The translations under genes and the position numbers were made by a program. A stretch of 64,000 bases of DNA from Mobula hypostoma (lineage: Eukaryota), in NCBI RefSeq assembly GCF_963921235.1, contig NC_086097.1, positions 27,406,001 through 27,470,000 of the forward strand. Reading direction: 5' to 3'. Each line of letters starts with the position of its first letter. Position 1 is the first letter of the stretch. Under the pieces are notes generated by a model. That model ran no database searches, was not told the origin of the DNA, and saw only the letters and a list, made by a program, of their open reading frames with translations. This document shows, in pieces, positions 2,888 through 63,389 of this stretch.

Positions 2888-3808
2888 TATTTATAAATAT
2901 AAAAATTAAATACAGTAAATATTACAAAAAGAATGCAAAAATAGTGCGATATTATTCATGGATTCATTGTTCATTCAGAAATCTGATGGTGGAAGGGAAG
3001 AAACTGTTCCTAAAAGGATGAGGATATGTCTTCTTTAGGCTCTTGTATTTACTGTCCACGTCATATTCACTTAATATTGTCACTGGAAGCGACAATGTGC
3101 ACAGTGTGCTTTGCTGCACAAAATCAAATAATATTGAAAGTAAATGGGAGTCACTGATTTAATTAAACTAAGCCTGCATGAAATCTGATAATGAGCCACT
3201 ATCTGACAGTCTCCTCACTGTCTCAGGGCAGTATTACAAGATTTTTTTTTGTATAAAGGGCCTGATTATGCAATTCTTGACTTAGACACCAACCATTTTT
3301 AGTGATTTGTTTTTGGTACATGAAGATAATTTAAGAACACTTGGATACAAATCTTTATCTCTGCATCTCTGATGTTCTCAACTGCACATTTGATAACATA
3401 TGTGTGTGAAAAGGAGTGTTTGATGTCTCTGGGCCTGTGCGCTATGGATTTTAGACGGAAGGGGGTGGGGAGCATCTTACAGAAACCCACCAAATACTGA
3501 AAGGCCTGTATAGAGTGGACATGAAGAGAATGGTTCCATCAGTGGCTGAGTCTAGGACCAGAGGGTACATACAGCCTCAGAATTCAATAAAGTCCTTTAT
3601 AACGGAGATGAAGAAGAATTTCTTCAGCCAGAGGTTGGTGAATCAGGTTAATAGCCTTGTTTTGATGTTGTTATTGTTGCTGCTTGTGTTGTGCTGCTGC
3701 ACATTGTGGGCATGCTGTATTGGCATCAGAATGTGTGGTGACACCTGTGAGCTGCCTCCAACACATCCTTGGGTGTCTTAGATGGTAACACAAACAACAC
3801 ATTTCACT

Positions 3809-3901
3809 GATGAAGGGTCTCAGCCTGAAACATCATCTGTTTATTCATTTTCATAGATGCTGCCTGACCCGCTGAGTTCCTCCAGCATTTTGTGTGTGTT
3901 G
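3809..3901 (+). mobile_element. Short Penelope-like terminal fragment with truncated hammerhead motif
   Basis: Flanked by a 14-bp direct repeat caacacatttcact (3795-3808, 3902-3915). Starts within ctgatgaagggtctcagcctgaaacatc. Confidence 0.75.
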
Positions 3902-4217
3902 CAACACATTTCACTATATCTTTTGATGGACATATGAAAAGATTCAAGATTGTTTATTGTAATTCTTCAGTATATAAGTGTAAAAGAAGAATGAAATGAC
4001 TGTTCCTTTGGATCCCATGCAGCATAAAAAATGCAATCAGCATAAAGAACAAAATAAAAAATCACAACAAATACCTAAAGTTAGCTTATATACACTGTCT
4101 GATTGCATGCACATAAACATTTATCTGTACATAAGGTGATTCTGGCAGGAAATGAAAAAGTAGTTGTGGTGGGGGTGGGGTGGGTGGGTTAGTGGGTGGA
4201 GGTGTTGATCAGTCTAA

Positions 4218-4748
4218 GCACAAACAAGAGAAAATCTGCAGATGCTAGATATCCAAGCAACATGTCAGTCCATGGTCTCCCCCACTGTTGCGATGAGGCC
4301 ACATTCAGGTTGGAGAAGCACCATATATTCTGTCTGGGTAGCCTCCAGCCTAAAGGCAGGAACACAGATTTCTTGAACTTCTGGTAATGATCCTCCAAGC
4401 CCCTCACCATTCCCCATTCCCATTTCCTTCTCTCACTTTATCACCTCCCTTTGGGGCACCTCCTCCTCTTCTTTCTTCCTTGGCCTTCTGTCCTCTTGTA
4501 TCAGATTCCCCCTTCTCCAGCCCTATATTTCTTTCACAAATCAACTTCCCAGCTCTTTACTTCACCCCTCCTCCCCTCCTGGTTTTACCCATCACCTTGT
4601 GTTTCTTCCTCTCCTCTCCCCACGTCCTTACTCTGACTCATCTTTTTTCCCAGTCCTGATGAAGGGTCTCAGCACAAAACGTCGACTGTACTCTTTTCCA
4701 TAGATGCTGCCTGGCCTGCTGAGTTCCGCCAGCGTCTTCTGTGTGTTG
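4218..4748 (+). mobile_element. Penelope-like element 3' fragment (GIY-YIG C-terminus plus pLTR with degenerate hammerhead at 4651-4688)
   Basis: Encodes MSVHGLPHCCDEATFRLEKHHIFCLGSLQPKGRN and has an inverted terminal piece at its left end. gttgatcag is duplicated at 4204-4212 and 4750-4758. Confidence 0.8.
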
Positions 4749-4902
4749 AGTTGATCAGGCTGATGGCTTGGGGGACGTAACTGTTGTCGAGTCTGGTGGT
4801 CCTGGCCTGATGCAAATAAATGTGAATCTCAATCTGACTGCAGTTGATCCCAGCCCAGTGAAGAAGCCATGCTCTGGAATCGATCAAGGATCAAAACATT
4901 GG

Positions 4903-5100
4903 CTGGCACAGTGGCGCAGATGGTAGAGATGCTTTCTCAAACCTCCAGTGATCCAGGCTCTGTCCTGACCTTGGATGCCATCTATGTGGAGTTGCCATGC
5001 CCTCCCTGTGACCACATGGGTTTCTTCTGGGTTGTCCAGTTTCCTCCGATATCCCATGTGTGCATGATAGGATAACTGGCTATTTTAAATTTCCTCTAGT
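4903..5100 (+). repeat. tRNA-derived V-SINE (decayed)
   Basis: tRNA-like head followed by the V-domain-like segment tgtggagttgccatg...gggtttcttctgggttgtccagtttcctcc. Confidence 0.6.
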
Positions 5101-9030: not shown

Positions 9031-12000
9031 GAGACGGATAACTGACTATGTCCATAAGCAAATCATATTAATAATTGGATGAGAATGTACAGAGCATGAT
9101 TAATAAGTTTGCAGATGAACACTAAAATAGGTGACATCGTTGACAATGGAGATGGTTATAAACACAAGAGATTCTGAAGATGCTGGAAATCCTGAGCAAC
9201 ACACACAAAATGGTGGAAAAACTCAACGTCAAGCAACATTTATGGAGAGGATCAAACAGCTGACGTTTTGGGCTGAGACCCTTCATTAGTACTGGAAAGG
9301 AAAGTGTGGAAAGAACTGCCAGCAGGTAGGTTCAATTATAACGTTTAAGAGAAGTTTGGTCAGGTACATGGTTGAGGGAGGTATGGAGGATCATGGTTTG
9401 GGTGTAGGCAGGTGGGACTAGCAGAAGACCAGGTTGGTACAGACTCGTTAGGCCAAAAGGCCTGTATCTGTACTATAGTACTTTCTGACTCTACCTGCAG
9501 TCTTTTGGTATTGGAATTGGTTTATTATTGTCACATGTACCAAGATACAGTGAAAAGTTTGTCTTGCACACTGTTCATACAGATCAAAACATTACACATT
9601 GCACTGAGACAGAACAAGGTAAAGCAATAACAATGCAGAATAAAGTGTTTTGTGTCTGCATCCCTAATATCCTGCATATTATATTTTAAATTGCATTTCT
9701 CCAAAATGTTCTTGCTTTCAATACATTCTTCAAGCTTACACTCTTCTCAAGTAAACTAATCAAAAATAAAATTAAGTGGCGGAATTGAGAGCATAAAGAG
9801 TTAAAAACAATGGCTGATCATCTGGCCTTCACTCAACTAGTTAGTGAAGCAGGGTCACTATTTTCTATTATCAAATTAAAAAGTGGCGCGTGCTGGGTAA
9901 CTTAATCAGGTACCTCGACTAACATTACGGGTGCACATTGTTTTTCTTCAGGGCAGGGTGTCATTATTCCATGAGTAAATATCAACAGTTTTATCCTGCT
10001 ACAGCTTAGTTTAATTTTTCACCTTTCTGATGTTACATGCAATTGTTATTTTCTATGTGCATGAATGCAGTATAATGCATGTTTAACGACTTCTCGCTTG
10101 GAAGAACAAATTATGTTACCAAGATGCTTGGGAGAGAAAAGCTTGCTTTTATTTAGCACTCTTGATGACCTCAGGATATCTGAAAGCAGTTTAGCTACCT
10201 AATCATTTGCAATTGGAATTTAGTCACTATTGAAATTTAGGAAATTCAGCCAGTAAATTCTCCCAAAATGTAGTGACTAAAGCAGTAGATGCAGAGAGAA
10301 CATTGAAAATTGAATAAAGTTATGCCCCCTTGAGAGGGCATAATTTTAAGGTGATTGGAGGAAAGTTCAACAGCTGGTCCAACACTATTTGCCTTTATTA
10401 ACCTGGTGTGCACTGGGTCCATGCTCTTTATTCGCTGTTGCTGCCATGATTTAGAAGGTACACGAGCCTCAGGTCTCACACCACCAGGTTCAAGAACAGT
10501 TACTATCCCATAACCATCAGGCTGTTGAACAAAAGGGGATAACCATACTCACTTGCTCATCCACTCAGATGTTCCCACAAGCAATGATTTCACTATAAGA
10601 ACTCTTTATCTTGTTATTTCATGTTCTCGTCATTTATAGCTATTTATTTATATTTGCATTTACATAGTTTGTTGTCTTCTGTACTTGGGTTGATCTTTCA
10701 TCGATCCTGTTATAGTTACTATTCTATAGATTTGCTGAGTATGTCTGCAGGAAAATGAATTTCAGGGTTTTATGTGGTGACATACGTGTACTCTGATAAT
10801 AAAATTTACTTTGAACTTTGAAGTATAGGGGGAAATGTCAGCGGTACGGTAATTTACACAGAAATTGGTGTGTGCGTGGAGAACCCTGCCAGTGGTGGTG
10901 GAGGCAGATACATTAGGGATATTTAAGAGACTCTTCGATGGGCACATGGATGAAATTAAAATGGAGGACTGTGTAGAAGGGAATGATTAGATTGATCTTA
11001 GAGTAGGCAAAAAGGTCAGCACAACATCATGGCCCAAAGGGTTTGTACTCTACTATGTTCTTAATATAATGTTCCAGTTCCAGAAAAAATGCAGGTAAAC
11101 AAATAAAGTGGACAAGCTACAACAAAGTAGATTGGGAAATCAAGAGTTCATCTTTTAGTATATGACTGGTCCTCCAAGACACTGATAACAGCTGGACAGA
11201 AGCTGTCGTTGAGCTTGGTAGCCAAGCTCTAAGCATTGCTGTTCAACGTGAAAACAAAGATTTAAAGAAAAATGTTTTGAAATGAGTACAAATTCTGATG
11301 TTGCAATGGAAAAGTTTCACAAATAATACTGGGAATTAGACAGCAAACCCACTTGGTATGGGACCTGGCACTACTTCAAGCTTGAACAGGACAAAGTGTC
11401 TATTGAGGAAAGGTTGAGCAACCTAGGGCTTTTCTCTTTGGAGTGACTTGAAAGAGGTGTATAGGATGATAAAATGCATAGATAAAGCGGACAGCCAGAG
11501 ACTTTATCCCAGGGCAGAAGTGGCTTATATGAGCGGGCATTATTTTAAGGTGATTGGAGGAAAGTTTAAGGGAGGATATCAGAGGTAGTTATCTTTACAC
11601 AGAGAGTAGTGGGTGCGTGGAACGTGCTGCCAAGAGTGGTTGTAGAGGCAAATATGTTAGGGACATTTAAGAGACTCTTAGATTGGCACATGGATGCTGG
11701 AAAAAATGAAGGACAATGTGGGAGGGAAGGGTTAGATTGATGTTAAAGCAGGTTGAAGCGTTGGCACAACATCATGGGCCGAAGGGCCTGTATGATGCTC
11801 TAAATTGGTCTTTGCTTCTGCTTTCACAGTCTTGACAAAGTGGACCTTTAACCGAGGGTGGCAAGGGCCAATAAAAGAAGACATCTGTTTAAGGTGAGTG
11901 GAGGAAAATTTAGGGGAGACATCAGAGGTATGTTTGTTACACTGAGTGGTGGGTGCATGGAATGCATTGCTGAAGGTGGTGGTAGTGGCGGATACAAAGG

Positions 12001-13395: not shown

Positions 13396-13439
13396 AAACA
13401 ATCAAATAAATAAACAAGTAATATCAAGAATATGAGATG

Positions 13440-15175: not shown

Positions 15176-17174
15176 CAAATCCCACTTTGGCAGTATTAAT
15201 TTAAATTCAGGTGATTGAGTACATCTGGAATTAAAAAGCAAATTTAATGACTGGATTGCCATAAAAGCCCATCTGCTTCACTGATAAACACAAGAGATTC
15301 TGCAGATGCTGGAAATCTAATGTGACACACACAAAATGCTGGAGTAACTCAGCAAATCAGGCAGCATCTATAGAGGGGAATAAACAGTCGATGCTTCAGG
15401 CCATGACTCTTCATCAGGACAGGATGGAAGAAACTTCACATGTCCTTTGAAGAAGCAAGTCTACCATCCAGCCTCACTGCAATGTGGTTGCCTCTTAAGA
15501 TTCTCGATAGTTCAGGGTAGCAAGGTAGCTTAACAGTTGGCACAATACTTTATAGCACCTGCTGTAAGATCAGGTGCAATTCCCACTGTATGTAGAGACA
15601 TTCTCCCCGAGACCATGTGAGCTTCCTCCCACATTCCAAAGACGTACAGGTTAGTAAATTGTGGGCATGCTATGTTGCCAGAAGTTTGGTGACATTTGAG
15701 GTCTGCCCAGCACCATCCTCGCTGATTTGATTTGATGCAAGCAATGCAATTCACTGTATTTTTCAATGTATATGTGACAAATAAATCTAATCTTTATCTT
15801 TAATTAAGGGTCTTGATGATTACATTAATGTGTGCTGAAAGGTTTTCAGTTTTGGACACCCTGCTACAGGAAAGATGTCATTAAGCTGGAAATAATGCAG
15901 AGGAGATTTAAGAGGATGTTGCCAGGTTGTGGAGAGAGATTGAGCAAATTGGGGTTATTTTCATTGGACCACAGGAGAATGATTCCACAACCTATGGATT
16001 TACTTCTAAGTACTCTACAACTCATGTTCTCAATATTATTTACTTATCTATATGTTTATCATTTTTGTATTTGCACAATTTGTCTTTTGCACATTGGTTG
16101 TTTGTCTTTGTTGTATGCAGTTCTCCATTGATTCTATTGTGCTTCTTTGTATTTACTGCGAATACCTACAAGAAAATGAATCTTAAGAGTAGTATATGGT
16201 AATGTATATGTACTTTGATAATACATTTACTTTTAACTTTGAATGAGGAATGACCTCAGAGGTGCATAAACTCACAAGGGGCAGAGATATGGTGAACACA
16301 GTCTTTTTCCTTGGGCTGGGGCATCATGAAATAGAAGAAACTTAATAGGGATCGAACTGTTTCATCAGAGGGTGTCAGTATAGGGAATAAGCTACCAGAG
16401 GAAGTGGTTGAGGCAGATACAGTACATTACCAACATTTAAAAGATACTTGGATGGATACACGGAAAGGAAAGGCTCAGAGGGATAAGGACTAAATGCAGG
16501 CTATGGGACCAGCTTAAATGGAATTCTTCATCCACATGGACCAATTGAACTGAAAGGCTTGTTTTTGTGCTATATCACTTTATGAAATACCTTCAAGTGA
16601 ACACTGACAAAAAAATAAAGATTAATATGATTTGTCACATGTACATCAAGACATACAGTGAAATGCATCCTTTTGTGTCCAATCAAATCAGTGAGGATTG
16701 TGCTGGGGAGCCCACAAGTGTCGCCGCACTTCAGATGCCAACATAGCATGCCCGCAACTCATGCCCTAACTGTATGCCTTTGAAATGTGGGAAGAAATCG
16801 GAGCGCCGGGTGAAATGCATGGGAAAAACATACAAACTCCTTACAGGCAACATTGGGAATTGAACCCCAATTAGTGAAAGCCAGTGCTGTAATGTGATGC
16901 ATGGCTACTACACTATCGAGCTGCAACTAAATATGGCAACTAAAATAAGAAAAGGCTTATAGTTCTGTAAGAGTAACAAAGTGCTTGTAACCACATCCTG
17001 GTGTATTATTGATCTAAAAGCACAAGGTCCCATGTTTGGCTCTATATACTGTGGAGAATAATGGTCAGAGCTCCTCAATTCTACCCCAGGACATGGCTGA
17101 GCCTAACTATCTTCAGTACCTCTGTCAACGACTTGCCTTCTGTCACAGGTGATGTTCACAAATGACAGCACTTT

Positions 17175-18930: not shown

Positions 18931-19381
18931 ATGTTATTCAATTCCATTTGCAAATCAACTCATTGTAAAGTTAAATAGTCCTACATGGATGCAGGACCTC
19001 CACAACCATCAGACGTATGTCATAAAAGTGCCGGGCAATGACCACTGCTATCAAAAGAGGCATGAACTGGCTGCTGCAACATATGCAAAATGCTAGAGGA
19101 TCTCAGCAAGTCAAGCAGCATCTACAGAGGAGAATGAGGAGGTGTAAACCAGCAATTTTTTTCCCAGGATGGCAATGGCAATACGAGAGGGTATAATTTT
19201 AAGGTTACACCATCTACAAAGAGGTATAAAAAGTCAAAGCTTTGGGCCAAGACCTTTAAAAGGGTCCTGGTGAAGGGTCTTGGCATGAAACAGCAACTAT
19301 TTATACCCCTCCATAGATGCTGCCTGACCTGCAGAGTCCCTCCAAAATTTTGTGTGTGTGTTGCTCCGTACTTCCAACATA

Positions 19382-21773: not shown

Positions 21774-23570
21774 TATATGGAGGATGTCACAGGTAGCTTT
21801 CTTACACAGAGAGCATTGGGTGTGTCAAACATGCTGCCAGAGATGGTGGTAGAGGCAGATACATTAGTAACATTCAAGGGACTCTTCGATAGAGACATAG
21901 GAGAGAGAAAAATGCAGGGCCATGTGGGAGTGAAGGGTTAGACTGGTCTCAGATTATGTTAAAAGCATAGCACAAGATTATGGGCTGAAGGGCTTGTACT
22001 GTTCTAAGTTCCATGTCATAAACAGTTGACATTTTGGGCCAAGACCCTTCATCAGGTCTGGAAAGGAAGACGCCAGAATATTTACGTATTCCTGTCTATA
22101 GATGCTGCTCGATTTGCTAAGTTCTTCCAACATTCTGTGTTTGTGCTTGTTGCTGCAGAATCTCTTGTTTTTTTTGAACTGCCTGCCTTTGACAATCATG
22201 GCTTTACCACCGCCAGCAATAACTAGTACCCAGGTAGTCACATAAATACTTCTAGAGCAAGTCTATTCGCTAAAAGAAAAATAAAAATATTTCCTTTCAA
22301 AGGATTTTGCATTTAGTATCAGTATACTGAAAACATAGGTGCAAGATTTATGCTCTGTGAATTGACCTTCAAGTCACAAGGAATGTCTTCCAGCAAGCCT
22401 CATGATTAAATGTTATACGCTCATGGTACTTTGTCTTTATTGTGTCATTTTAATCAGTTTCATCTGGATTTGTGCACCTTTTGCTGGGAAAAATGTAATT
22501 TATCAAGAAAGGCTTCAAAAATTAAGTAAAACCAACATCTCTTTTCCTGAAAGGTTCCATTTAAAACAATTGTTTTTGTTTGAATTTGGTTGAGATTATT
22601 GAAAAACAGGTGGCAAAGCTGAACGCGATAATGCTGAAAATTAGGCATAAAAACTGAAAATGTTGGAAATATTCAGAGGTGCAATTAAGCATTTGGACTT
22701 TGTCAACAGTGGACCTTTCAGAGTTGAGGCCCATTTCATCAGAATATTCTCTCTCTCCCTCTCCCTAAAGATGCTTAAATTGCTGTGTACTCGGACTATT
22801 TTCCATAGATCATATCTCTGCACTCTATTTAAGCAGTACTTGGTTGTCTACCTTCAGGTCAGACGATTGTGGGCTTAAGCCCTATTCATGAGGTTTAGTG
22901 TCATCGAGTCAAACAGCATGGAAAGTCCTCGGTCCAACTCATCCATGCTGATCAAGAAGCTTATCTAAGCTTGTTCCATTTGGTTGACCCATATCCCCTA
23001 AGCTTTCCCTGAGTCTTTTACATCTTTTACATGTTATTGTACCAGCCTCAAGCACTTACGCTGGCAGCTTGTTCCATGTAGGCACCAGCATTTGTATAAA
23101 GACCTCAGATCCCTTATAAATCTTTGTCTTTTCACCTTAAACATTATCCCTCCAGTTTTAGACTCCCCTATCCTGAGAACAGGACTGCGTACATTCACCT
23201 TATCTATACCTCCCCATGATTTACACCTCAGTCCTTCATCCCAAGGAATCAATTCCAGGTTGACCAACTTCTCTCTAGGACCCAGTCCCTGAATCCTGGC
23301 AATATAAAACATTTCTGATTCCTTTCTAGCTTCCCACAGTAGGGTGAACAGGGTGAGCTAAGCCATACACAATAATGGAAATGAAGCCTCACCAATGCTT
23401 TGTACAACTGTAATATAAGATCACAACTTCTATTCTTTGTGTCCTGACTAATGAAGTGCCCTGACTAAATGGCTTCTTATTACCCTTTTGACCCGAGGCT
23501 TGAGTACAGAAAGCTAGGCTTATACTCATGTAGCAGTGAGAAAGCTGATAAGGTGGCTAACAAGGATATG

Positions 23571-23616
23571 CTGCCTGGCCTGCTGCGTTCACCAGCAACT
23601 TTTATGTGTGTTGCTT
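23571..23616 (+). mobile_element. 46-bp Penelope-like terminal insertion inside a CR1 fragment (CR1 about 23545-24235)
   Basis: Nearly identical to the PLE terminus at 28534-28580. TSD aaggatatg at 23562-23570 and 23617-23625. Confidence 0.8.
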
Positions 23617-26600
23617 AAGGATATGGTGTGTTGGCCTTCATTAGTTGAAGGATTGAGTTCAAGAGCCACGAGGTAATGTTGCAGCTCTATAAGACTACGG
23701 TTAGAACACACAAAGTATTGTATTCAATTCTGGTCATCTTATTATAGAAAGGATTTGAAACTTTTAGAGAGGATGTAGAGATTTACTAGGATGCTGCCTG
23801 GATTCGAAAGCATGTATTATGAGGAAAGATTGAGTGAACTAGGGCTTTTCTCTTCAGCATGGAGGAGAGGTGACTTGATAGAGGCATATAAAAAGCATAA
23901 ATGGATTGGACTACCAATGTCTTTTTCCCAGGTGGAAATAGCTAATACAAGGGGGCATAATCTTAAGGTCACTGGAGGAAGTTATAGAGGAGGGGATGTC
24001 AGAGGCAGGTTTTCTACACAGAGAGTGGTGGGTGCATTAAATGTGTTGCTGGGGTGGTGGAAGAGGCAGATACAATAGGGGCATTTAAGAAGCTCTTAGA
24101 TAAGCACATGGATGATGGAAAAATGGAGGGTTATGTGGGAGGGACGAGTTAGATTGATCTTGGAACAGATTAAAAGGTTGGCACAACATTGTGAGCTGTA
24201 GGGCCTTTATTGTGCTGGAGGGTTGTATGTTCTATGTAAGTGCAATTGTGCTTTCTGGATTGAAGGATTAAATCGAGTGAGACCTGAACTGTATCAGACC
24301 GATTGTGAGAAAATGCAATTGCGCATGTGGCCGATTGATCACATGGTGAATCGATTGGGTATCCTATGGATGAGGCACTCTCCTTTGGGTGCAGGCTTCT
24401 GAGTGTGCCTAACTTCATCTTGATGGGCCTAGTTCATCGCTCTTGTACTGTAGGTTGCCCAGTGTGTACAGTGACGGAACATTTCATAGTAAAAATGCTT
24501 AATCATACTACTCTGTTGTCGTTCATGTCCCATGCATATGAAACAAAACCCAACTGCCGTTTCAAATGGCCTGTCCCAGCCAACCAACATTCTTTAAAAA
24601 AACGAATTATCTCATTTCTGTTTGTGGAACCTTGCTGCATGCAAAGTAGCTACCTTGTGTTGTAACAGCAATTACATTAAAATTATCATTGGTTGCAAAT
24701 ACCTTTGAGACATTCCAGTCTAAAAGGATGCCTGTCTTTCATTCCTTTCTGCTGTTTAGGCTCCAAGGATGAGCAAGATTACGACTCTCTACTTTGTAAA
24801 CATCATTAGAACTGATGGTTGAAGACCAAAGTTGGCTAGTTCAGAGGTTGAAGCCTTTGGTTCGGCTTGTCCAGAGGATGGAGGTCTGTGAGTCTGGGTC
24901 AGGGGGACGGGGTGGGGGTGTCAGAGGCCTGATGTCTGTGAGTATGAGATTTTGGAGGGACTGGCCTGGAGGGGGTGTGTGTGTGCGCGCGCGCGTAGGC
25001 AGGAAGATGGGGAAGGAGCTTGTTATGCTGATGATGTTTTTGCTGTTTGTGTTGTTCAACTGAACATCGTGGGCATGCCATGTTGGCACCGGAATGTGTG
25101 GTGACACTTGTGGGTTGCCCTAAGCACATCCTAAACCGTGTTGGTTGTTAATGCAAACAAAGCATCTCACTGTAGGTTTTGACGTACAGGTGATAAATGT
25201 TAAGTGTTAAACTTTGAACAAGTCTGTATTGATAAATGCTTCTTCAAAGACTGTGAGTCTGGCTAAGAGGGAGAAAGTTTCACTTGAGTGCTGGGGCGCT
25301 GGTGCTGTTGCAGGGAAGGGATTAAAACATTAGTAACACAATGTGCAAGCTGTTCTTCCTACAATGTGGCATTGGCCCAGGAGATACTGCAGTCATCCTC
25401 CTCGTCATTAAGGAATGAGTGGAGAGACAAGAGAGATGAACCTCTCTGGAAAAGGTCAGCAAATATATGTTAAAATAAAATATCACTGTGTGAAGAGTCT
25501 CTCCACTGAAATGAACATCCAAGTACATTGTCATTCAATAGATTTAAGCAATCCACGGCACTCGAGTTGAATTAATTCATATATTTCATTATGAGTCTGA
25601 GGAGGGTTGTTGTGTCACCAAAGACGCTAGCAAATTTCTACAGATAAATCACTGTCTGGTATGGAGGGGTCAATGCACAGGATCGGAAAAAGTTACAGTA
25701 AGTTGTAAACCCAGCTAGCTCCATCATGATCACTAGCCTTCCCAGCATTGAGGACACCTTCAAAAGGTGATGCCTGAAACAAGCAGATCCATTGCTACCA
25801 TCAAGGAGGAGCCTGAAGGCACACACTCAACATCTTAGGAATGGCTTCTTCTCCTCCGCCATTAAATTTCCGAACAGACAATGAATCAACCCCTGAACAC
25901 TACCTCACTATTTTGTTCTCTTTTTGCACTATTATATATACATATTTTTTCTTATTTTAATTTATTGTATATTTTATGCATCGCACTGTACCGCTGCCAC
26001 AGAACAACAAATTTCATGACATATTGTCAGCGATAATAAACCTGATTCTGATTCTCTATCACAGTTTATTTTATCCTTAATGTTCTTTCTATGGTGCAAA
26101 ATACATTGGTGCATTAACTCATAAGTGTGCAATGAACCAGATTTGATTAGGGACCTTAAGGTAAAGGATCCCTTAGGAGCAGTGATCATAATACGATAAA
26201 ATTACCTCTGAAGTTTGAGAGGGAAAAGCTAAAATCAGATGTTTCAGTATTATATTGGAATAAGAGGAACTACCAAGGCAAGAGAGAGGAGATGTACATA
26301 GGTGACCAAGGAAATGTATTACATGTCTAACTCAATAAAACATGCTCTTATGAATAATAAGAAAATTAGAGTAGAAATTGACCCCTCAACTCTGCCCACC
26401 AATCAGTATATGCATGGCTATTCTGCCACATGCTTCATCTCTTCTATGTCAGTTCCCCACCACTCCCAATAAAGTCTCTAACCTATGTTTAATTATCTCC
26501 AGTTCCACTAGCCTCTGGGGGAGAGAATTCCAGAGATTCACCATCCTCTGTGAGAAGTTTCCATATACCTCAGTTTCTCATGGCTCAATGCTTGAACCCA

Positions 26601-27230: not shown

Positions 27231-27501
27231 GACATTAATATTTTTAAAGATAGACTCAATCAAATCGATTTAGGGGATCTCGTCAAAAAAGCTTACTTTA
27301 CAATTTAACTCCCACGTCGTTCACACCGACTGCGCGTTATAACAGCAGTCCGGCAGTGCTTGTGCAGCACCAAGTAGAAGCAGAAGACCACAAATGTACA
27401 GAAATATTCTCAGTGGCCACTTTACTAAGTACCTCTTATCAAATGGTCATTGAGTGTAAATATTCAAGCAATCCAATAAAACACAATGTACGAATATCAC
27501 A

Positions 27502-27624
27502 AACAACAGGAATTCTGCAGATGCTGGAAATTCAAGCAACATACATCAAAGTTGCTGGTGAACGCAGCAGGCCAGGCATCATGCTGCCTGGCCTGCTGCG
27601 TTCACCAGCAACTTTGATGTATGT
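27502..27624. mobile_element. Palindromic mini Penelope-like insertion (two inverted terminal pieces)
   Basis: Perfect arms of about 42 bp (27537-27578 / 27585-27626). Perfect 15-bp TSD tgtacgaatatcaca at 27487-27501 and 27625-27639. Confidence 0.85.
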
Positions 27625-27826
27625 TGTACGAATATCACAGCTGTGATATACACAGAGTGATTGTATGTATTTAAAGTGATGCTAGGTGATGTGTATGTGG
27701 TGATGAGGGGTGCAGTGATAGGAGTGGGACAAACAGTCCATAAGCAGGGTGCGTGGGATCCTTCATGATATTCATCAAAGTTGCTGGTGAACGCAGCAGG
27801 CCAGGCAGCATCTCTAGGAAGAGGTA

Positions 27827-27864
27827 CAGTCGACGTTTCGGGCCGAGACCCTTCGTCAGGACTA
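27827..27864 (-). ncRNA. Minimal type I hammerhead ribozyme motif with intact core
   Basis: Minus strand reads UAGUC CUGACGA A GGGU-CUCG-GCCC GAAA C GUC|GACUG. It has stem I AGUC/GACU, the CUGANGA and GAAA boxes, a 4-bp stem II, a palindromic ACGU helix III and a GUC cleavage triplet. Confidence 0.8.
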
Positions 27865-28478
27865 ACTGAAGGAAAAGCTAGTAAGAGATTTGAAAGTGGG
27901 AGGGGGAGGGGGAGATCCGAAATGATAGGAGAAGACAGGAGGGGGAGGGATGGAGCCAAGAGCTGGACAGGTGATTGGCAAAAGGGATACGAGAGGATCA
28001 TGGGACAGAAGGCCCAGGGAGAAGAAAAGGGGGAGGGGGCGAAAAAGCCCAGAGGATGGGCAAGGGGTATAGTGAGAGGGACAGAGGGAGAAAAAGGAGA
28101 GAGAGAAAAAAAAGTGTGTATATAAATAAATAACGGATGGGGTACGAGGGGGAGGTGGGGCATTAGCGGAAGTTAGAGAAGTCAATGTTCATGCCATCAG
28201 GTTGGAGGCTACCCAGATGGAATATAAGGTATTGTTCCTCCAACCTGAGTGTGGCTTCATCTTTACAGTAGAGGAGGCCGTGGATAGACACATCAGAATG
28301 GGAATGGGATGTGGAATTAAAATGTGTAGCCACTGGGAGATCCTGCTTTCTCTGGCGGACAGAGCGTAGGTGTTCAGCAAAATGATCTCCCAGTCGGCGC
28401 TGGGTCTCGCCAATGTATAGAAAAGGATATCCCCCTCCCCCTCCCACTTTCAAATCTCTTACTAGCTCTTCTTTCAGT

Positions 28479-28516
28479 TAGGCCTGATGAAGGGTCTTGG
28501 CCTGAAACGTCGACTG
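28479..28516 (+). ncRNA. Hammerhead ribozyme motif, conserved boxes intact but stems weakened
   Basis: UAGGC CUGAUGA A GGGUCUUGGCCU GAAAC GUC GACUG, with a G-A mismatch in stem I and a G-U pair at the base of stem II. Confidence 0.6.
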
Positions 28517-44887: not shown

Positions 44888-45570
44888 AAACACAAGAGAT
44901 TCTGAAGATGCTGGAAATAAAGAGCAACGTACACAAAATGCTGGAGGAACTCAGCAAGTCAGGCAGCATTTATGGATGGGTAGCCTCCAACCTGATGGTA
45001 TGAACATTGATTTCTCTAAGATGTGGTAATCTCTCTCCCTCCACTTTCTCTCTTTTTCAATTCCACATTCTCATTCCCCCATTACCTCCTTCTCTTCTGC
45101 TCAGCTACCAACTCCTCCCTCTAGTTCTCCTCCTCCTTCCCTTTCTCCCATGATCCACTGTCCTCTCCTATTAGATTCCTTCTTCTGCAGCCCTTCACCT
45201 CTTCCATATATCACCTCCCAGCTTAATAGGGGATGAAGTAAGGAGCTGGGATGTGATAGGTGAAAGAAGGGCTGAAGATGGAGTAGAGAGTGGACCATGG
45301 AAGAAGGGGACGGAGGAGGGGAATATCCCCTCCTAGCCTCTTACTTCATCCACCCTTCCCTCACCCACCCACCCACATTACCCCTCAGCTGGCCTCACCT
45401 ATCATCTGCCAGCTTGTACTTCTTTCCCTCCCCACCCACTCATCTTTTTATTCTGGTTTCTTCCCTTTCTTTCCAATTCTAATGAAGGATCTCCACCCAA
45501 AATGTCAACTATTTATTCCGCCCATAGATGTTGTCTGACCTGCTGTTCTTCCAGCATTTTGTGTGTTGCC
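44888..45570 (+). mobile_element. Penelope-like terminal fragment, rearranged
   Basis: Inverted terminal piece, a GSLQPDGMNIDFS remnant, a pyrimidine-rich pLTR and a degenerate hammerhead at about 45475-45511. Confidence 0.7.
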
Positions 45571-46104
45571 TTGAGTAACGATGGCACTTTAGTGCAATAC
45601 AGGGCAGATTCACATATGGAGGCATCACTGTCTCTCCCACTGAGTGGCTCGAGGATACTGCACCACAGTCCTCCAACTCCTACTCATCTGGCAGGGGTAG
45701 GAAGTTGGCAGGCTGTGCAACTGTGGAAGACATCTGCACCTGTCCTCCTCCAATACTAACATGCACACATTGTTGTCTTTTAGCAAGAGAGAGGGAGACC
45801 AGGAAGGGCTGGTACTGTAGCCCACTGACAGGACAAAGCTGTAACTTATTGCCAGTTCGCTGAATTGCAGAATTCTTTGTCACAGATGGCTGTGGAGGCC
45901 AAGTCATTGGGCATAGTTAAAGCAGAGGCAGGTAGTTTCTTGATTAGTAAGGGAATCAAACGTTACTGAGAGAAGGCAGGAGAACGGGGTTGAGAAGGAA
46001 AATAAATCAGCCATGATGGAATGATGGAGCAGACTCGTTGGCTGAATGACCTAACTTTGCTGCTTTGATTTATGGTCTTATGGTCTTTATTACATTTGCA
46101 GATG

Positions 46105-46405: not shown

Positions 46406-48694
46406 TAAAAAGAACTGTGGGATGGTAAATGGAATATTTCTGATCTGTAGAACTTAGCTCCACACATTGTCAGTCCACTTACCAACACCATGGAAGTTTG
46501 GAATTGAAATCCTCCACACTATTGCAATAATGCAGTGAAGAATGTTGCTACATGCCTGACAACAAGCACTGTTCTTTACTATAGCAGGTCTCAGGCATTT
46601 TCTACACTATACATAAAAAAGAGCAATTAAAAGCCTTCAGCTCTGGATCGGTGACTCATGATGGTGTGTTGTTTTCCCATACAGTTTATCAAAATGCAGG
46701 ACCAAACACTGACATTTGCACTGCCTAAAGAAGGCAGCAGTTAATTGATACCAATTTGCAAGCTAGGATCTATCTCTGAAATCCCAAGACCTTCAATTCT
46801 TTGAGGAATGGTTCCAACAGATGCCCTGCAACCTTGGCCAGGAGATACAAGGGAGTCTGCAGATGCTGGGAATCTACAGCAGCACACACAAAATGCTAGA
46901 AGAACTCAGCGGGTCAGGCGGCATCCATGGAGGAAAATGAGCAGTCAGTGTTATCTGTCAAGACCCTTCATTAGGAGTGATTCCAAACTTCATTCATGAT
47001 GAGAGATCCTCAGTCTGTTCGTCATGGGCAAGCCTAGACAAAGAGTGTCAGAAGAACCTCTTCTTTTCAATGCTGCCCAGCTAATACCCACATAAATGTA
47101 CTCCCAGTGTATAACACAGACTTCCTCTCGATGTCAACAAAAGAGCTGCTCATTGACTTCAGAAAGGAGGGTGGTGCACAAGCTCTTCTCTACTTCAAGG
47201 GTGATGAGGTTGAGAAGGTTGACAGGGTAGCCTGCCCTGGTCCAACCACATTGATGTCATGGCCAAGAAAGCTCACCAAAGCTTCCTCGACTCTTACCAA
47301 TTTTTATCGATGCTCCACCAGAAAGTGTTCTGTCTGGCTGCATTCAACTTGGTATGGTAAGTGCTCTGCGCATGACTGCAAGAAACTTCAGGGAGTTGTG
47401 GACACAGCTTAGCACACCAGGGAAACCAGCCTCCCCTTCATGCACTGTTAATGTTATCACTGCCTCGCTAAATCAGCCAGCATAATAAAATACTGATCTC
47501 ACCCCAGGCATTCTCTCTTCTTTCCTCACCCCTTACCAGAAGATATAATAGCCTGAAAACATGTGCCATCAGAATCAAGAACTGTTTCTAACCCACTGAA
47601 CAGAACTCTCATACAATAAGATAGACTCTTGGCCTCACAATCTACCTCATTATGTTCTTACACCATACCGTTCACCTACACTGCGTTTTTTCCAAAGATG
47701 CTGAGTTCCTCCTGCATTCTATGTGTGCTGCTCTGGATTTCTAGCATCTGCAGAATCTCTAGTGTTTATGACTTGTAGCACTTTTTCAGTAGCTTGTTAA
47801 TTTATTTTGCATCGTGATTGTTTTACCTTATTCTACCTCAATGCACTGGGTAATGTTTTGGTCTATATGAAGAGTATGCAAGATGAGTTTTTCACTGTAT
47901 CTTCTACATGTGACAATATACAAATACCAGCATGTTTATGTAGGTTAAGAATGACAGATTGTCCAGCGTCGGCAGTGTTGAACAACTATTGCTATCAAAG
48001 TCATCCCCAAGCGACTATATAATAGCAACAAATAGCCTTAGGTTTTGGGGCATGATTGCCATTGGCAAGATTGGCATTTATCACCAATCCATATAACCTT
48101 CTTGCTTTCCCTGTTGTCTAGAGGACTTAAAACATAGACCATAGAACAATACAGCACAGTACAGGCCCTTCAGCCCATGATGTTGTGCTGACCATTTAAC
48201 CTATTCTAAGATCAATCTAACCATTCCTTCCTACATACCTTTCCATTTTCCTTTCAACCATGTGCTAATCTAAGAGTTTCTTCAATGCTACTAATGCAGC
48301 TGCCTCTACCACCCCTCATGACAGGGCATTCCACGCATTCCACTCTGTGTAAATAAACTTACTTCTGATATTCCTCCTGTACTTTCCTCCAAACATATTA
48401 AAATTATGCCTCCTGGTATGAGCCACCTCTGCTTGAGAAATAGACTCTTGTTATATAATCAACCTATGCCACTTATCTGGTACACTGCTATCAAGTGATC
48501 TCTGATCCTCCTTCATCCGAAAGGAATATGTCCTTGCTTGCTCAAGTTATCCTTCTAAGAGATGCCCTCTAATCCAGGAGCATACTGGTAAATCTCTTCT
48601 CCACTCCCTCTAAAGCTTCTATATCCTTCCTACAATGGTGTGACCAGAACTGAACACAATATCCTAAGTGTGGTCTAACCAGAGTTTTATAGAC

Positions 48695-48930
48695 ACCGGA
48701 GAGTGCAGATGCTGGAAATCCAGAATAAAATCCGCAAATCACTGGAGGAACTCAACAGGTCAGGCAGCATCTGTGGAAATGAATAAACAATTGATGTTTC
48801 GGGCCAAGTCCCTTCTTCAGGACTGAAAAAGAAGGGGGAAAATGCCAGAATAAGAAAAATGGGTGAGGGGAACAAGGACTAGCTAGAAGGTGAAGCCAGT
48901 TCTGTGGAAAAGGTAAAGGGCTGGAGAAAA
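48695..48930 (-). mobile_element. Penelope-like terminal fragment with hammerhead motif at 48788-48825
   Basis: Minus strand reads CAGUC CUGAAGA A GGGACUUGGCCC GAAAC AUC AAUUG; the boxes are intact but helices I and III are mismatched. Confidence 0.7.
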
Positions 48931-50078: not shown

Positions 50079-50084
50079 AAAGAA

Positions 50085-51795: not shown

Positions 51796-51805
51796 ACCTT
51801 ATCAA

Positions 51806-52261: not shown

Positions 52262-53690
52262 GAAATCCTTCTCAAACAGCAAGAAGAAGAAAGCTGATAG
52301 GACAGCAGAGTGGACCATGAGAGAAAAAGGAGGAGAGAGGGCACCTTGGGAGGTGATAGGCAGGTGAGAAGAGGTAAGTGGCCAGAGTGAAGAATAGAAG
52401 AAGAGTGAATGGAGAGGGGGAAAACATTACAGGAAAGAGATATCAATGTACATGCCATCAGGTTGGAGGCTACCTAGATGCACTAGATGAGTTGTACTCC
52501 TTCATCCTTAGAGTGGCCTCATCATGGCGAAAGAGGAGGCCATGGACCAGATGTTGGAATAGGAATGAGGATAGGAATTAAAATGGTTGGCCACCGTGAA
52601 ATTCTGCATTTGGTGGATGTAGCGAGGGTGCTTGACAAAGCGGTCGGTCCCCAAACCTATGTCGGATCTCACCAGTGTAGAGGAGGCCCTATTGGGAGCA
52701 CCGGATGCAACAGATGACTCCAACAGATTTTCAGGTGAAGTGATGCGTCACCTGGAATAACTGTTTGGGGCCCTAAATGAAGGCAAGGGAGGAGGTGAAT
52801 GGGCATGTGTAACATTTCTAAGATTAGAGGGGAGGGATGAATGGACAAAGGAATCATGGAGGGTGTGATCCCTGCGGAAAGCAGAGAGTGGGATGGAGGT
52901 AAAGATGTGTTTGATGCTAGGATCCCTTGAAGATGGCGGAAGCTGCAGAGAATGATGTGTTGGATGCGGAGGCTCATGGAAGCAGTAGGTAAGGGCAAGA
53001 GGAACTCCATCACTGTTAAGGTGGTGGGAAGATGGGATAAGTGTGGATGTCTAGGAAATTGAGGAGATCCAGGTGAGCACAGCATCAACGGTGGAAGAAG
53101 GGAAACCCCGTTTTTCGATGAAGGAGAACATTTCTGATGTACTGGAAAGGAAAGCCTCATCCCAGGAATAAATGTGGTGGAGACAATGGAACTAAGAAAA
53201 GGGAATAGCATTTTACAGGAGACAGGATGGGAAGAAGTATAGTCAAAATAGCCGTGGGAATTGGTAGGTTTATAAAAGATGTCGGTAGGCAGTTTGTCTC
53301 CAGAGATGGAGACAACAAGGTTGAGAAAGGGGAGAAAGGTGTCAGAAGTGGACCAAGTTAATTTAAGGGCTGGGTGGAAGTTGAAGGCAAAATTGATGAA
53401 ATTGACAACCTCAGCATGGGTGCATGAAGCAGCATCAATGCAGTTGTCAATGTAGTGGAGGAAGAGATGGGGAATATTACCAAGGAAGATTGGAATATGA
53501 ACTGTTCTACATAGCCAACAGAAAAGCAGGCATAGCTGAAGCCCATGTGGATGCCCATGGCTACCCCTTGAGATTGGAGAAAGTGGCAAGAGCCAAAGGA
53601 GATATTGTTGAGGGTGAGGACCAGTTCTGCCCAATGGAGGAGAGTGGTGGTGGAAGGGAAACTGGCTGGATATTTTGTTGAGGAAGAAGT
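52262..53690 (-). mobile_element. Penelope-like element RT plus GIY-YIG pseudogene
   Basis: Frameshifted remnants GVAMGIHMGFSYAC, FLHYIDNC (decayed YIDD), FHPALKLTW...LPFLN, YKPTNSHGYFDYTSSHP and VANHFNS. Confidence 0.9.
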
Positions 53691-56960: not shown

Positions 56961-57093
56961 CTAGAATGGTGTTTCTGGATTTCACTTTGGCATTTAATAC
57001 TTTTGTTCCATAGACCTCGGTGAACAAACTCCTACTCTTTGGTCTAAATGAACCACTGTACAATTAGGTTTTGGTCTTCCTAACCAACAGACC

Positions 57094-60545: not shown

Positions 60546-61280
60546 CCATTACAGGATATTTTTGTAATACCCTGGGCTCTTATCTTGTTAAACAGCCTCA
60601 TATGTGGCACCTTGTCAAAGGCCTTCTGAAAATCCAAATAAACAATATCCACTGACTCTCCTTTGTCTACCCTGCCTGTTATTTTCTCAAAGAATTCTAA
60701 CAGATTTGTCAGGCAAGATTTCCCCTTAAGAAAATTATGCTAACTTTAACCTATTTTATCATGTGCCTTCAAGCATACCAAAACCTTATCCTTAATAATG
60801 GACTGCAACATTTTGCCAACCACTGAAATCAGGTTAACTGACCTATAATGTCCTTTCTTTTCCCCCTCCCTTCTTAAGGAGTGGAATAGCATTTACAATT
60901 TTTCAGTCCTCTGGAACCAGGATCTAGTGATTCTTGAAAGATCATTACTAGTATCTCTAAATCCTCTTTATCTACCTCTTTCAGAACCCTAGGGTGCAGC
61001 CCATCTGGTACAGGTGACTTATTTACCTTCAGACTTCTTACCTTTCCAAGCACTTTATCCTTAGTAATAGCAACTACACTCACTTCTACCCCAAACACTC
61101 TTAAATTTATGGCATACTGCTAGCTATTCCACAGCGAAGACGGACACAAATTACATATTAATTTCGCCTGCCCTTCCTTTGTCCCCAAATATTACCTCTC
61201 AAACATTATTTTCCAATGGTCCAATACAATTCACCTCTCTCTTTATATAGCTGCTAAAACTTCTGGCAACCTCTTTTAAA

Positions 61281-61585
61281 GTAGGGGATTTGCAACCCAT
61301 TCCTTAGCTAGAGCCTTCAGCAATTTGGGCATTGAGGGAGAGAGGAAGAGGAGAGCCATCCGCAGTACCACCGATGCGGCAGAGAGGGCCTCAAGATGGC
61401 TGTGGCTCAAAAGAGGGGAGCCATGGAGTCATGAGTAGCTAGCCATCCGGACACAAGCTGGGGTCTGATCAGCCCCGGCTGGGTCAACTGGAGGAGGTTG
61501 TATGATGTTGAAAGACCCAAAACACCCGATGATTCCAGAAACATCACTGAAGATGTGTCCAGAAGCATCAGCAGATGTATGTACA
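61281..61585 (+). mobile_element. HERO-like (restriction-like endonuclease) non-LTR element 3' end
   Basis: Reads RGFATHSLARAFSNLGIEGERKRRAIRSTTDAAERASRWLWLKRGEPWSHE*, followed by a 3'UTR containing the hairpin ggggtctgatcagcccc. Confidence 0.65.
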
Positions 61586-62684
61586 CAGACATGCTTTTTC
61601 TATCTTCTATCTTCTGTTGTAATTTACATCCCACATACTGGCTACTGTTCAGAGGAGTGCATATAAGTCTAAACAGGATCTTTTTACTCTTGCAGTTTCT
61701 TAATTCTACCCACTAGGTCTCTACATCTTCCTGTCTATTGAATCTCAGAGCTGTACATGGTAACATATATGTTCTTTGATAATAAATTAATTTCGAACTT
61801 TGAACTATGTCACCTCTTTCTAAGGAACTGAATTCATATTTTACCAACAGACCACCCAATGCTCTCTGCCTACCTGCTTGTCCTTTCGATACAAGGTATA
61901 TCCTTGGATGTTAAGCTCTAAATTATAATCTTCTTTCAGCTATGACTGAGTGATGCCCACAACATCATTCATATCTGCAATCTCTAACTGTGCGCCAATA
62001 TTTATTGTTTTTTTATTATTGTGCTCTTTATCTTATTGTATATTTTTGTGCTGCATTAGATCTGGAGTAATAATTATTTTGATCTCCTTTACACGTGTAC
62101 TGGAAATGACATTAAGTAATCTTGAATCTTTACTCCAAAGAGAAAGCCGTAGTTCATTCAACGATCTTCATGCTCACTAATCCAGGCAGTATCCCAGTAA
62201 ATTTCCTCTGCACCCTCTATAAAGCTTCCACATTCTTCCTGTAAAGGAGGTGATCAAGACTGAAAACAATAATCCATATGCGGTCTAACCAGGGTTGGCT
62301 TCGGTTACCGTATAAGGTAACTGGAGAATGCACCCTAACAGATGTATGTAACAAGTTATAGAGGTACATTTCCTCACAGCTCTTGAACTCAATCCCCCGA
62401 CTAATGAAAACCTTCTTAACAACCCTATCAATTTGTGCGGCATCTTTGAAGGATCGATGGATATGGACCCCAAGATCCTGCTGCTCTTCCACAGGAGGAG
62501 TTTACGTGTGTACACTGAGTTTTATGTGTGAATCATTTAACAGATCTGTTAATAATCTGAGAAGATGAAGCATTAGAATAAACTTGCAAATTAGTAATAA
62601 GAACTTCTTTAACTAACTAAAAGGGAAAAAATTCCAGAAGGCATTCAGTATGGTGCTACGTAAAAGGATGCTGTTTATTAATCT

Positions 62685-62939
62685 GGCACGGTAGCGTAGT
62701 GGTTAGCGTAACACTTTACAACACCAGTGACCCAGGTTCAATTCTGCTGCGGTCTGTAAGGAGATAGTACGTTCTTCCCAGGACCTCGTGGGTTTCCTCT
62801 GGGTGCTCCTGTTTCTTCCCACATTCCAAAGATGTATGAGTTAGTAGTTTAATTATTCACATGGGTAAAAATGGGTGATGCGGGTTTGTTGAACTGGGAG
62901 GGCCTATTACCATGCCGTATCTCTAAATTTAAAAAAAAA
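62685..62939 (+). repeat. tRNA-derived V-SINE (tail type A)
   Basis: A box tagcgtagtgg, B box ggttcaattc, V-domain and A-rich end. Confidence 0.8.
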
Positions 62940-63389
62940 CCATCATAGATACAGGGTCAAAGCAAACAAGCCCATAAAATTTTCTCAACCACAGCCCCTT
63001 TTTTTTTAATTTTATTTTTATTTGGATAAGGAATTCACAATTATCATGTACTTTTTTCACACATATAACCTTTTCCATTTTTTTATATACCACAGCCCCT
63101 TCTATTGTTTTCTGAAATGTTGGCTACCCTTCTAAAAGATCCAATGTCCCAATGAAGGGTCTCAGCCCAAAATGTCGACTGTTAATTCTTCTCCATAGAT
63201 GCTGACTGATTTGCTGAGTTCCTAGAGCATTTTATGTGTGTTGCTCAAGATGTTCAGCACTTGTAGAATCTCGTGTTTACCCTTTTACAAATACCAGCCC
63301 CGCCCAAGCCAAACACCATGCTAACTTTGAAACTAGTAGCTGTATCTTCATTACTGTGGGGTTAAACCACTATTCTTGTTACGGTTTGA

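What the first reader, a model, noticed from the sequence alone, without database searches (positions are those of the whole stretch)
3807..63181. About 15 dispersed hammerhead motifs in 64 kb: a highly amplified ribozyme-bearing PLE terminal family
Seen: recognisable copies of CAGTC-CTGATGA-AGGGTCTCGGCCC-GAAAC-GTC-GACTG at about 3807(+), 4651(+), 9257(-), 15385(-), 19262(+), 22023(-), 27827(-), 28479(+), 30481(+), 32016(+), 32807(+), 45475(+), 46942(-), 48788(-) and 63146(+). Many sit in 100-250 bp fragments with no coding sequence. Inference: if roughly one copy per 4 kb holds genome-wide, this lineage has a very large ribozyme-derived repeat load. These short units may be mobilised non-autonomously (retrozyme- or SINE-like) by PLE machinery.
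Basis: partly seen in the sequence, partly recalled or inferred. Interest (0 to 1): 0.7.

Follow-up and report, generated by a model that had tools for sequence, protein, structure and literature searches.

The report
Penelope stubs carrying decayed hammerheads
These 15 spots are real but mostly broken end-pieces of a very abundant Penelope-type jumping gene, carrying a small, predicted self-cutting RNA motif already known from such elements; they are not a separate mini-element, though about a quarter of copies begin just in front of the motif, likely because the copying enzyme runs off the start of the element's own RNA.

Summary
All 15 motifs are present. The density holds genome-wide: 73,800 exact core matches in 3.48 Gb, and 210 copies in 1.36 Mb of sampled DNA, about 540,000 extrapolated. 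They are the pseudo-LTR end of an autonomous 3.5-kb Neptune-type Penelope-like element; full-length tandem copies are 99.7% identical. The motif is the known minimal type I hammerhead, and only 1 of 14 scored window copies is intact. Young copies end at two fixed 3' sites and many have target duplications. Short and long copies mix on a tree, so a separate SINE or retrozyme is not supported. The 5' ends are not random: 69 of 289 start within 10 nt before the core, while only 9 start in the 10-nt bin holding the cut site. My best reading is run-off at the transcript start (inferred, about 55%; no RNA test possible). The scan has already reported this pattern in this genome and in others. Verdict: new member of a known kind.

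The parts
3807..3902 (+). Solo short copy (0 to +95; 0 = C3 of CUGANGA) with a 14-bp target duplication; core intact, helix I lost
4256..4755 (+). Older copy: ORF end, pyrimidine-rich 3' UTR, motif at 4651 (G12 changed to A), short 3' end
9157..9308 (-). Old short copy (about -19 to +134), core broken
15285..15424 (-). Old short copy (-7 to +132), core broken
19074..19380 (.). Old head-to-head pair: plus-strand arm 19264-19380 (starts at -3, motif at 19262, core broken) and minus-strand remnants 19074-19137 and 19208-19257
22011..22167 (.). Old head-to-head pair: minus-strand arm with the motif at 22023 (core broken) and plus-strand arm 22087-22167
23566..23622 (+). Young tail-only copy (+48 to +96) with a 9-bp duplication, no hammerhead core
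27501..27627 (.). Young head-to-head hairpin insertion of two tail arms (+48 to +129 and +48 to about +92), 13-bp target duplication, no core
27770..28613 (.). Young head-to-head insertion: minus-strand arm -557 to +89 (GIY-YIG end, UTR, motif) and plus-strand arm -57 to +129; 13-bp target duplication with one mismatch
27827..27864 (-). The only fully intact minimal type I hammerhead in the window: helix I 4-5 bp, CUGACGA, extra A, helix II 4 bp with CUCG loop, GAAAC-GUC; predicted cut between +27 and +28
28479..28516 (+). Motif with intact core and one helix I mismatch
29370..30600 (+). Old long copy: RT thumb to GIY-YIG (aa 711-1040), UTR, broken motif at 30481
32019..32107 (+). Old short copy (-2 to +86), core broken
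32806..32837 (+). 32-nt core-only remnant, the weakest of the 15 (E about 0.001)
45377..45579 (+). Old copy with part of the UTR (about -97 to +105), core broken
46846..46979 (-). Old short copy (-5 to +128), core broken
48703..48930 (-). Old copy (about -116 to +117); core nucleotides intact, helices damaged
52436..53669 (-). Old ORF fragment of the same element (aa 617-1040) without its hammerhead end
63146..63275 (+). Old short copy (-3 to +126), core broken

Best explanation
The motifs are the pseudo-LTR ends of an autonomous 3.5-kb Neptune-type Penelope-like retrotransposon, most of them decayed, likely inserted by the element's own RT and GIY-YIG enzyme from the element's own RNA, and the shortest ones likely arise when that enzyme runs off the RNA's 5' end just before the hammerhead. 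Shown: the parent element with one ORF (RT then GIY-YIG); the motif in both pLTRs; two fixed 3' ends (about +92 and +129); target duplications; variable 5' ends with a peak at -9..0 (finest at -5 to -2); CpG-type decay of the motif. Inferred by analogy with the Anolis PLE (PMC11167929): reverse transcription starts internally at +92 or +129. On a transcript that begins at about -4 in the upstream pLTR, these sites lie in the first 135 nt, so copying yields 100- or 135-nt stubs. On read-through RNA the same sites in the downstream pLTR give the long, randomly 5'-truncated copies. Head-to-head pairs likely come from two priming events, one at each site. Hammerhead cleavage is predicted to need a dimer and does not appear to set the boundaries. 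Confidence in the PLE-end identity is about 0.95; in run-off at a start site, about 0.55.
For: Parent element: unit 3,514-3,516 bp, 1,043-codon open frame, DKG, YIDD, CX4CxxC linker, GIY-YIG with inner CxxC; tandem copies 99.7% identical; Pfam RVT_1 E 6e-5 and GIY-YIG E 1e-3, both below the curated cut-off; 41,935 first-look candidates for the RT region. 50 of 225 core-covering copies have the ORF end within 800 nt upstream. 3' ends of 62 young sampled copies: 24 at +90..103, 29 at +122..134, none between, 9 shorter. 58 of 60 head-to-head pairs have one long and one short end. 5' starts: 69 of 289 at -9..0, 16 at -19..-10, 30 at +1..+10, 9 at +21..+30, 56 beyond -190. 0 of 69 peak copies keep the upstream pyrimidine tract, against 51 of 90 long ones. 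Genome-wide purine-pair counts of 843, 5,945, 7,673 and 10,986 at -2, -10, -18 and -46 give about 4%, 29%, 37% and 54% of 73,800 truncated. Short and long copies are unclustered on a tree. Weak hints for an RNA end at -4: an initiator-like YYANWYY (consensus recalled) centred at -4; G exceeds A just before -4 (1,376 against 1,069; genome G:A = 0.214:0.289); in solo copies that base is not target-derived in 13 of 20 G cases against 2 of 9 A cases (read by eye; P = 0.05).
Against: No RNA 5' end was observed. A single extra G between the target duplication and the element is seen in only 3 of 20 resolved G-solos, and a single extra A in 1 of 9 A-solos, so the cap signature is weak. Five more YYANWYY matches lie upstream in the UTR. 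Many peak copies are arms of inversions joined through AG microhomology, which could create or sharpen the peak. In D. virilis Penelope the start lies upstream of an intron whose 3' end maps to helix I (PMC2377424, PMC4209133), and here too a pyrimidine tract and AG precede helix I. Only 7 of 69 peak copies, most of them old, pass the automatic duplication test (controls 0-1). The tree has only 92 columns and few supported forks. The purine-pair estimates assume random upstream sequence, which inverted arms are not.
Confidence: 0.85

Rival explanations
1. The short units are an independent non-autonomous family (SINE-like, or a non-LTR retrozyme through circular RNA) mobilised in trans by the PLE enzyme.
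For: A preferred 5' edge and fixed 3' ends give units of about 100 and 135 nt with target duplications. A few short tandem repeats of the unit appear in the listings. A 2026 preprint derives retrozymes from PLE pLTRs (10.64898/2026.07.22.740005).
Against: Short and long copies intermix, with identical rows in both groups. The 5' ends form a continuum into the ORF. There is no tandem array in the window. Only 17 same-strand neighbour pairs lie within 1 kb among 210 sampled copies, with no common spacing. The cut site is not a boundary. No upstream sequence is shared among 63 solo-like flanks.
Confidence: 0.07
2. They are PLE ends, but the 5' peak is not an RNA end: the new cDNA folds back, switches template or anneals to the target preferentially once helix I has been copied (helix I self-complementarity, AG/AGTC microhomology).
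For: The peak coincides with the outer edge of helix I (-5..-1, pairing with +28..+32). Several inverted pairs join -4 or -9 to +28 or +29. Junction microhomology of 1-4 nt is common.
Against: The peak is also present in solo copies whose target duplication abuts the start. A stall at the structure should end copies at its 3' foot (about +32), which is a trough. Re-start duplications of the first core bases directly before -4 (about 10 of 100 listed, by eye) look like jumps from a template end.
Confidence: 0.3
3. The 5' peak marks a 3' splice site in front of helix I, as in D. virilis Penelope, and the stubs are copies of spliced RNA.
For: A pyrimidine tract with CAG and TAG ends at -7 and -3. 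The Penelope intron ends at helix I (PMC4209133). Donor-like GTRAG sites lie at -545 to -701.
Against: Splicing predicts starts at -6 or -2 joined to an upstream exon. Only 4 of 112 copies starting at -12..+3 have a same-strand element piece directly upstream; 1 is nested, and in the 3 checked the piece does not end at a GT. Solo flanks share nothing.
Confidence: 0.08
4. Hammerhead self-cleavage produces the template's 5' end and so sets the copy boundary.
For: 3 young arms start at +28 or +29. The motif is kept across subfamilies.
Against: Only 9 of 289 starts fall in +21..+30, and the 3 arms at +28/+29 are inversion junctions. In the Anolis PLE, hammerhead mutants insert normally and no RNA reads begin at the cut (PMC11167929).
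Confidence: 0.03

Closest known systems
Minimal hammerheads (min-HHR) of metazoan PLE pLTRs, including fish Xena, Poseidon and Neptune (Cervera and De la Pena 2014, PMC4209133; results and discussion read)
   Same: Type I topology, helix I of 4-5 bp, extra nucleotide between 9 and 10.1, palindromic 15.2-16.2 with no loop 3, location in the pLTR, mostly scattered single motifs from truncated PLEs
   Different: Copy number here is about 74,000 exact and about 540,000 decayed, against about 4,000 (coelacanth) and 9,000 (Xenopus) by their descriptor; the youngest full-length copies have G10.1-U11.1 instead of G-C; no shark or ray is mentioned in the parts read
Endonuclease-positive PLEs of the Neptune clade (Craig et al. 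2021, PMC8557442 and its preprint; passages read)
   Same: RT followed by GIY-YIG, DKG, CX2-5CxxC linker, CCHH, partial tandems, 5' truncation, inverted 5'-truncated copy, 30-40-bp tail on one end only
   Different: The 5'-end peak at the hammerhead's front edge is not described in the passages read; clade placement here rests on motifs, not on a tree with reference elements
PAc, the Poseidon element of Anolis carolinensis (Frangieh et al. 2024, PMC11167929; main text parts 1-2 of 4 read)
   Same: Two 3' ends that bracket the tail, downstream of the hammerhead at the pLTR-ORF junction; boundaries not at the cut site
   Different: A different clade (Penelope/Poseidon lacks the CX2-5CxxC linker per Craig et al.); in PAc the ORF starts inside the hammerhead, here the in-frame ATGs lie at +88 and +166
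Non-LTR retrozymes of animals (PMC7229834, passages and one section; 10.64898/2026.07.22.740005, parts 1-3 of 5)
   Same: Type I hammerhead in a short non-coding repeat related to PLE pLTRs; very high copy number (126,247 motifs in axolotl)
   Different: Retrozymes are head-to-tail tandem units with a hammerhead in each; these copies are dispersed or head-to-head, minimal-type, mostly dead, and continuous with the PLE ORF

Membership tests
EN+ Penelope-like element | [quoted passage not shown] | tested here: met
   1,043-codon frame in L092, L093, L096 and L098; RVT_1 at aa 534-696 and GIY-YIG at aa 946-1020, both below the curated cut-off
EN+ Penelope-like element | [quoted passage not shown] | tested here: met
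   IKPADKGG; GVIYCVRCSRCGLLYIG followed by conserved His residues
EN+ Penelope-like element | pLTRs from partial tandems, inverted 5'-truncated copy, optional 30-40-bp tail on one end | tested here: met
   Direct repeats of 523-1,054 bp and a 99.7% tandem; tail of about 37 nt; 58 of 60 inverted pairs have it on one arm only
Neptune clade | CX2-5CxxC linker upstream of GIY-YIG (shared with Nematis) | tested here: met
   CKRNKCYTC; definition
Neptune clade | RT phylogeny groups with reference Neptune elements | not tested
   No reference sequences were fetched
Minimal type I hammerhead of PLEs | CUGANGA and GAAA core, helices I and II, extra nucleotide after A9, palindromic 15.2-16.2 without loop 3 | tested here: met
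   Intact in 1 of 14 window copies and 20 of 198 sampled copies; core intact in 4 of 14 and 48 of 198; helix tallies over 132 of 192 copies
Minimal type I hammerhead of PLEs | Compensatory changes in the helices | tested here: inconclusive
   Variation is dominated by CpG-type decay; no two-sided change is common among the top six pair types per position
Minimal type I hammerhead of PLEs | Self-cleavage as a dimer or with protein help | not testable with these tools
   Needs an in vitro assay; the monomer's lowest-energy fold pairs the core with itself
Non-LTR retrozyme | At least two consecutive head-to-tail units, each with a complete hammerhead | tested here: not met
   None in the window; 17 same-strand neighbour pairs within 1 kb among 210 copies, with scattered spacings; rare short tandems exist elsewhere in the genome
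Non-LTR retrozyme | Unit-length linear and circular RNA | not testable with these tools
   Only assembled contigs were offered
SINE-like independent family | Own lineage with a fixed 5' end | tested here: not met
   Short and long copies unclustered, 35 changes against 34.8 (low resolution); 5' ends continuous, with a peak holding 24%

The most novel reading that the evidence does not exclude
The element's capped RNA starts 3-5 nt before the hammerhead. A dimeric enzyme primes both cut target strands, one at each of the two internal start sites (+92 and +129). On the 5' copy of these sites it runs off the RNA end, much like retroviral strong-stop DNA. On this reading over 100,000 of the stubs map the transcription start of a vertebrate Neptune element and record a two-primer insertion step that has not been shown for PLEs.
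Probability: 0.5. Interest if true: 0.55.

Novelty: new member of a known kind. Interest (0 to 1): 0.3.

Why it matters
As a ribozyme catalogue entry it is ordinary: PLE hammerheads and their scattered truncated copies are described, and about nine in ten copies here are broken. What could matter is scale and mechanism. Half a million insertions give a large natural record of how a poorly understood class of retroelements inserts. The boundary counts argue that hammerhead cleavage does not define the template, which agrees with the Anolis in vitro work. They also point to a testable RNA start at -4 and to one priming event at each of the two tail sites. The scan has reported the same pattern many times, so this window adds confirmation rather than a new object.

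Tried and rejected
Rfam found no hammerhead family in the window; its microRNA hits at 27537-27626 are the PLE hairpin insertion. Folding z-scores of four motif stretches were between -0.5 and +0.3 and say nothing. A cofold of two copies cannot represent the crossing dimer structure and was not used. Sequencing runs: no RNA holder was listed. Four contig-only runs were laid and showed no start or end pile-up, which contigs cannot show anyway; not used as evidence. The per-column allele table was out of register for some long copies and was ignored; only the aligned tree was used. An all-versus-all BLAST for 5' ends ran through inverted arms and was replaced by mapping to one natural full-length copy and to two subfamily profiles. 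By eye, the base before the start is G in 9 of 13 copies starting at -4 and 9 of 12 starting at -3; profile edges can bias this, so it is not counted as evidence. Locus-specific density was rejected. A supplement search of PMC11167929 for truncation or start-site text found nothing in 3 files. Literature searches for a description of this family in sharks or rays, or of a 5' peak at the hammerhead edge, gave no such paper in the listings. Repbase and Dfam could not be searched, and the preprint's supplementary tables, which include one chondrichthyan, were not visible.
Full report
Observation. All 15 motifs are at the stated places. The 15th is out of register and is confirmed by a profile (the profile was seeded with 14 window copies and 30 young genomic copies, so it is not independent for the window). 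Positions below are relative to the C of CUGANGA (0); the predicted cut lies between +27 and +28. The window lies in a gene with an exon at 7460-7762 (minus strand) that matches TTC7B (E 1e-38). That the host is a shark or ray is my inference from recalled repeat types, not a tool result.

Abundance. The own genome (3.48 Gb) holds 73,800 exact matches to a 25-nt core pattern, with 0 for the reversed control. In 136 stretches of 10 kb taken at round positions on the large contigs, the profile found 210 core-covering copies and 0 in reversed sequence. That is 1 per 6.5 kb, or about 540,000 genome-wide, and 15 in 64 kb is within chance (P = 0.08). Element-derived sequence covers about 7% of the sample.

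Parent element. A protein search with an RT fragment gave 41,935 first-look candidates and many long open frames. Ten fetched loci show a unit of about 3,515 bp with a 1,043-codon frame: DKG, YIDD, a CX4CxxC linker, and GIY-YIG with inner cysteines. The motif lies about 300 nt after the stop and again about 85 nt before the frame, and L093 is a tandem at 99.7% identity. Pfam gives weak RVT_1 and GIY-YIG hits in that order. By the motif definitions in Craig et al. (passages) this is a Neptune-type EN+ PLE; I did not build a tree with references. 50 of 225 core-covering copies have the ORF end within 800 nt upstream, three of them in the window.

The motif. It is the minimal type I hammerhead of Cervera and De la Pena (PMC4209133, parts 1-2 of 4 read), which they found to cleave poorly and not as a single motif. 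Of 14 scored window copies, 4 keep the core and 1 keeps core and helices; in the sample the figures are 48 and 20 of 198. Changes are mostly CpG-type (G12 to A in 47 of 132; the 15.2-16.2 pair broken by CA or TG in 62 of 132), as expected of neutrally decaying copies. The one intact copy is in the sense of the host pre-mRNA, but its neighbour is on the other strand, so cutting of the host transcript is unlikely (inference).

3' boundaries. Of 62 young sampled copies, 24 end at +90..103, 29 at +122..134, none between and 9 shorter. This is the PLE tail (PMC8557442, PMC3846280, passages), which Frangieh et al. tie to two internal start sites of reverse transcription (PMC11167929, parts 1-2 of 4). 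In 58 of 60 head-to-head pairs one arm has the long end and the other the short end, and no pair has two long ends (60 of the loci searched were chosen for short 5' ends). Target duplications of roughly 8-16 bp flank many young solo and paired insertions, including 3807-3902, 27501-27627 and 27770-28613 in the window.

5' boundaries. Young copies start anywhere from -2800 to +80. With two subfamily profiles, 289 sampled copies not cut at a stretch edge gave 56 starts beyond -190, 16 at -19..-10, 69 at -9..0, 30 at +1..+10, 24 at +11..+20 and 9 at +21..+30 (peak against its neighbours P = 5e-9 and 1e-4). The peak is not a profile artefact, since none of the 69 keeps the upstream pyrimidine tract. 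Genome-wide counts of a purine pair where the element has pyrimidines (843, 5,945, 7,673 and 10,986) translate roughly into 2,300 truncations per base over 0..-8, 780 over -8..-16 and 430 over -16..-44. The preferred edge is therefore the front of the hammerhead, and the cut site is a trough.

Independent family? On the shared 92 nt, 57 short and 51 long young copies need 35 label changes against 34.8 when shuffled, and four sets of identical rows contain both kinds (low resolution, and 40 of the short rows were picked by exact core match). There is no tandem array in the window and no common spacing among 17 close same-strand pairs. The retrozyme definition (PMC7229834, passages and section 15; preprint 10.64898/2026.07.22.740005, parts 1-3 of 5, supplements closed) is not met. 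That preprint reports retrozymes in its one chondrichthyan, which I could not compare.

Why the peak. If copying starts at +92 or +129, a transcript that begins at about -4 can only give stubs of 100 or 135 nt from its 5' copy of those sites. In the Anolis assay, shortening the template's 5' end shortened the product. PLE promoters are internal to the pLTR (PMC2377424, passages). Hints for an RNA end are an initiator-like sequence centred at -4, one of six such matches between -320 and +135; G over A before -4 (1,376 to 1,069); and, among hand-picked solos, a base not derived from the target in 13 of 20 resolved G cases (of 30 fetched) against 2 of 9 resolved A cases (of 20 fetched), P = 0.05. 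That an extra G reflects a copied cap, and that non-LTR enzymes jump at template ends, is recalled; one search gave only a listing. Against: a clean single extra G is rare (3 of 20), microhomology at AG is common, the peak also matches the edge of helix I, and no RNA data could test it. Splicing at the adjacent AG is disfavoured because no upstream exon is found.

Prior notes. I recorded the 5' excess before the first look-up. Earlier unchecked reports of this scan describe the same peak and the same reading in this genome and in other shark- or ray-like genomes; they are not independent support. Six paper searches listed no description of this family or of the peak. Repbase and Dfam were not available.

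Verdict. A real, very abundant, mostly dead PLE terminal repeat: a new member of a known kind, interest 0.3. The run-off and two-primer reading is the part worth testing (probability 0.5, interest 0.55 if true).

Noticed in passing
window 7460-7762 (-): Exon of a TTC7B-like gene (E 1e-38 to solved TTC7B); the window is largely intronic sequence of this gene (inferred).
   Followed up: partly
window 27537-27626: Rfam microRNA-precursor hits (mir-6536, E 7e-8, below its gathering score) are a head-to-head PLE tail insertion with a 13-bp duplication; such hairpins could give false microRNA annotations genome-wide.
   Followed up: yes
L092, L093, L098, L099; sample tallies: The youngest full-length copies carry G10.1-U11.1 instead of the conserved G-C (15 of 20 intact sampled motifs have U), and 19 of 132 copies have C at core position 6; these variants may have amplified despite weaker cleavage.
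   Followed up: partly
listing (e.g. G000:C1:146404656, 217296745, 220923794): About 10 of 100 listed copies have the first bases of the core repeated directly before the -4 start, as if the enzyme jumped back after reaching -4.
   Followed up: no
L261, L277, L287: Short copies starting at -4 are preceded, after 1-2 extra bases, by an internal ORF piece on the same strand that does not end at a splice donor; possibly template jumps.
   Followed up: partly
L097, L099, L100: Some full-length copies carry an in-frame duplication of about 213 bp in the proline-rich N-terminal part of the ORF.
   Followed up: no
window 28679-28753: A perfect 36-bp tandem containing GGGTTAGGG lies 65 bp beyond the 3' end of the young inverted insertion.
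   Followed up: no
window 4995, 31318, 42673, 46176, 62767 (family D14): A dispersed repeat that resembles the V-SINE central domain of shark and ray SINEs (recalled, not tested).
   Followed up: no
window 17268-18933 (-), 37972-39337, 57052-57649, 49102-49491: Fragments of several LINE-like RT and 3' end sequences (CR1-, L2- and L1/Tx1-like by recall).
   Followed up: no
window 40694-40913: A decayed 32-bp tandem array of about 7 copies.
   Followed up: no
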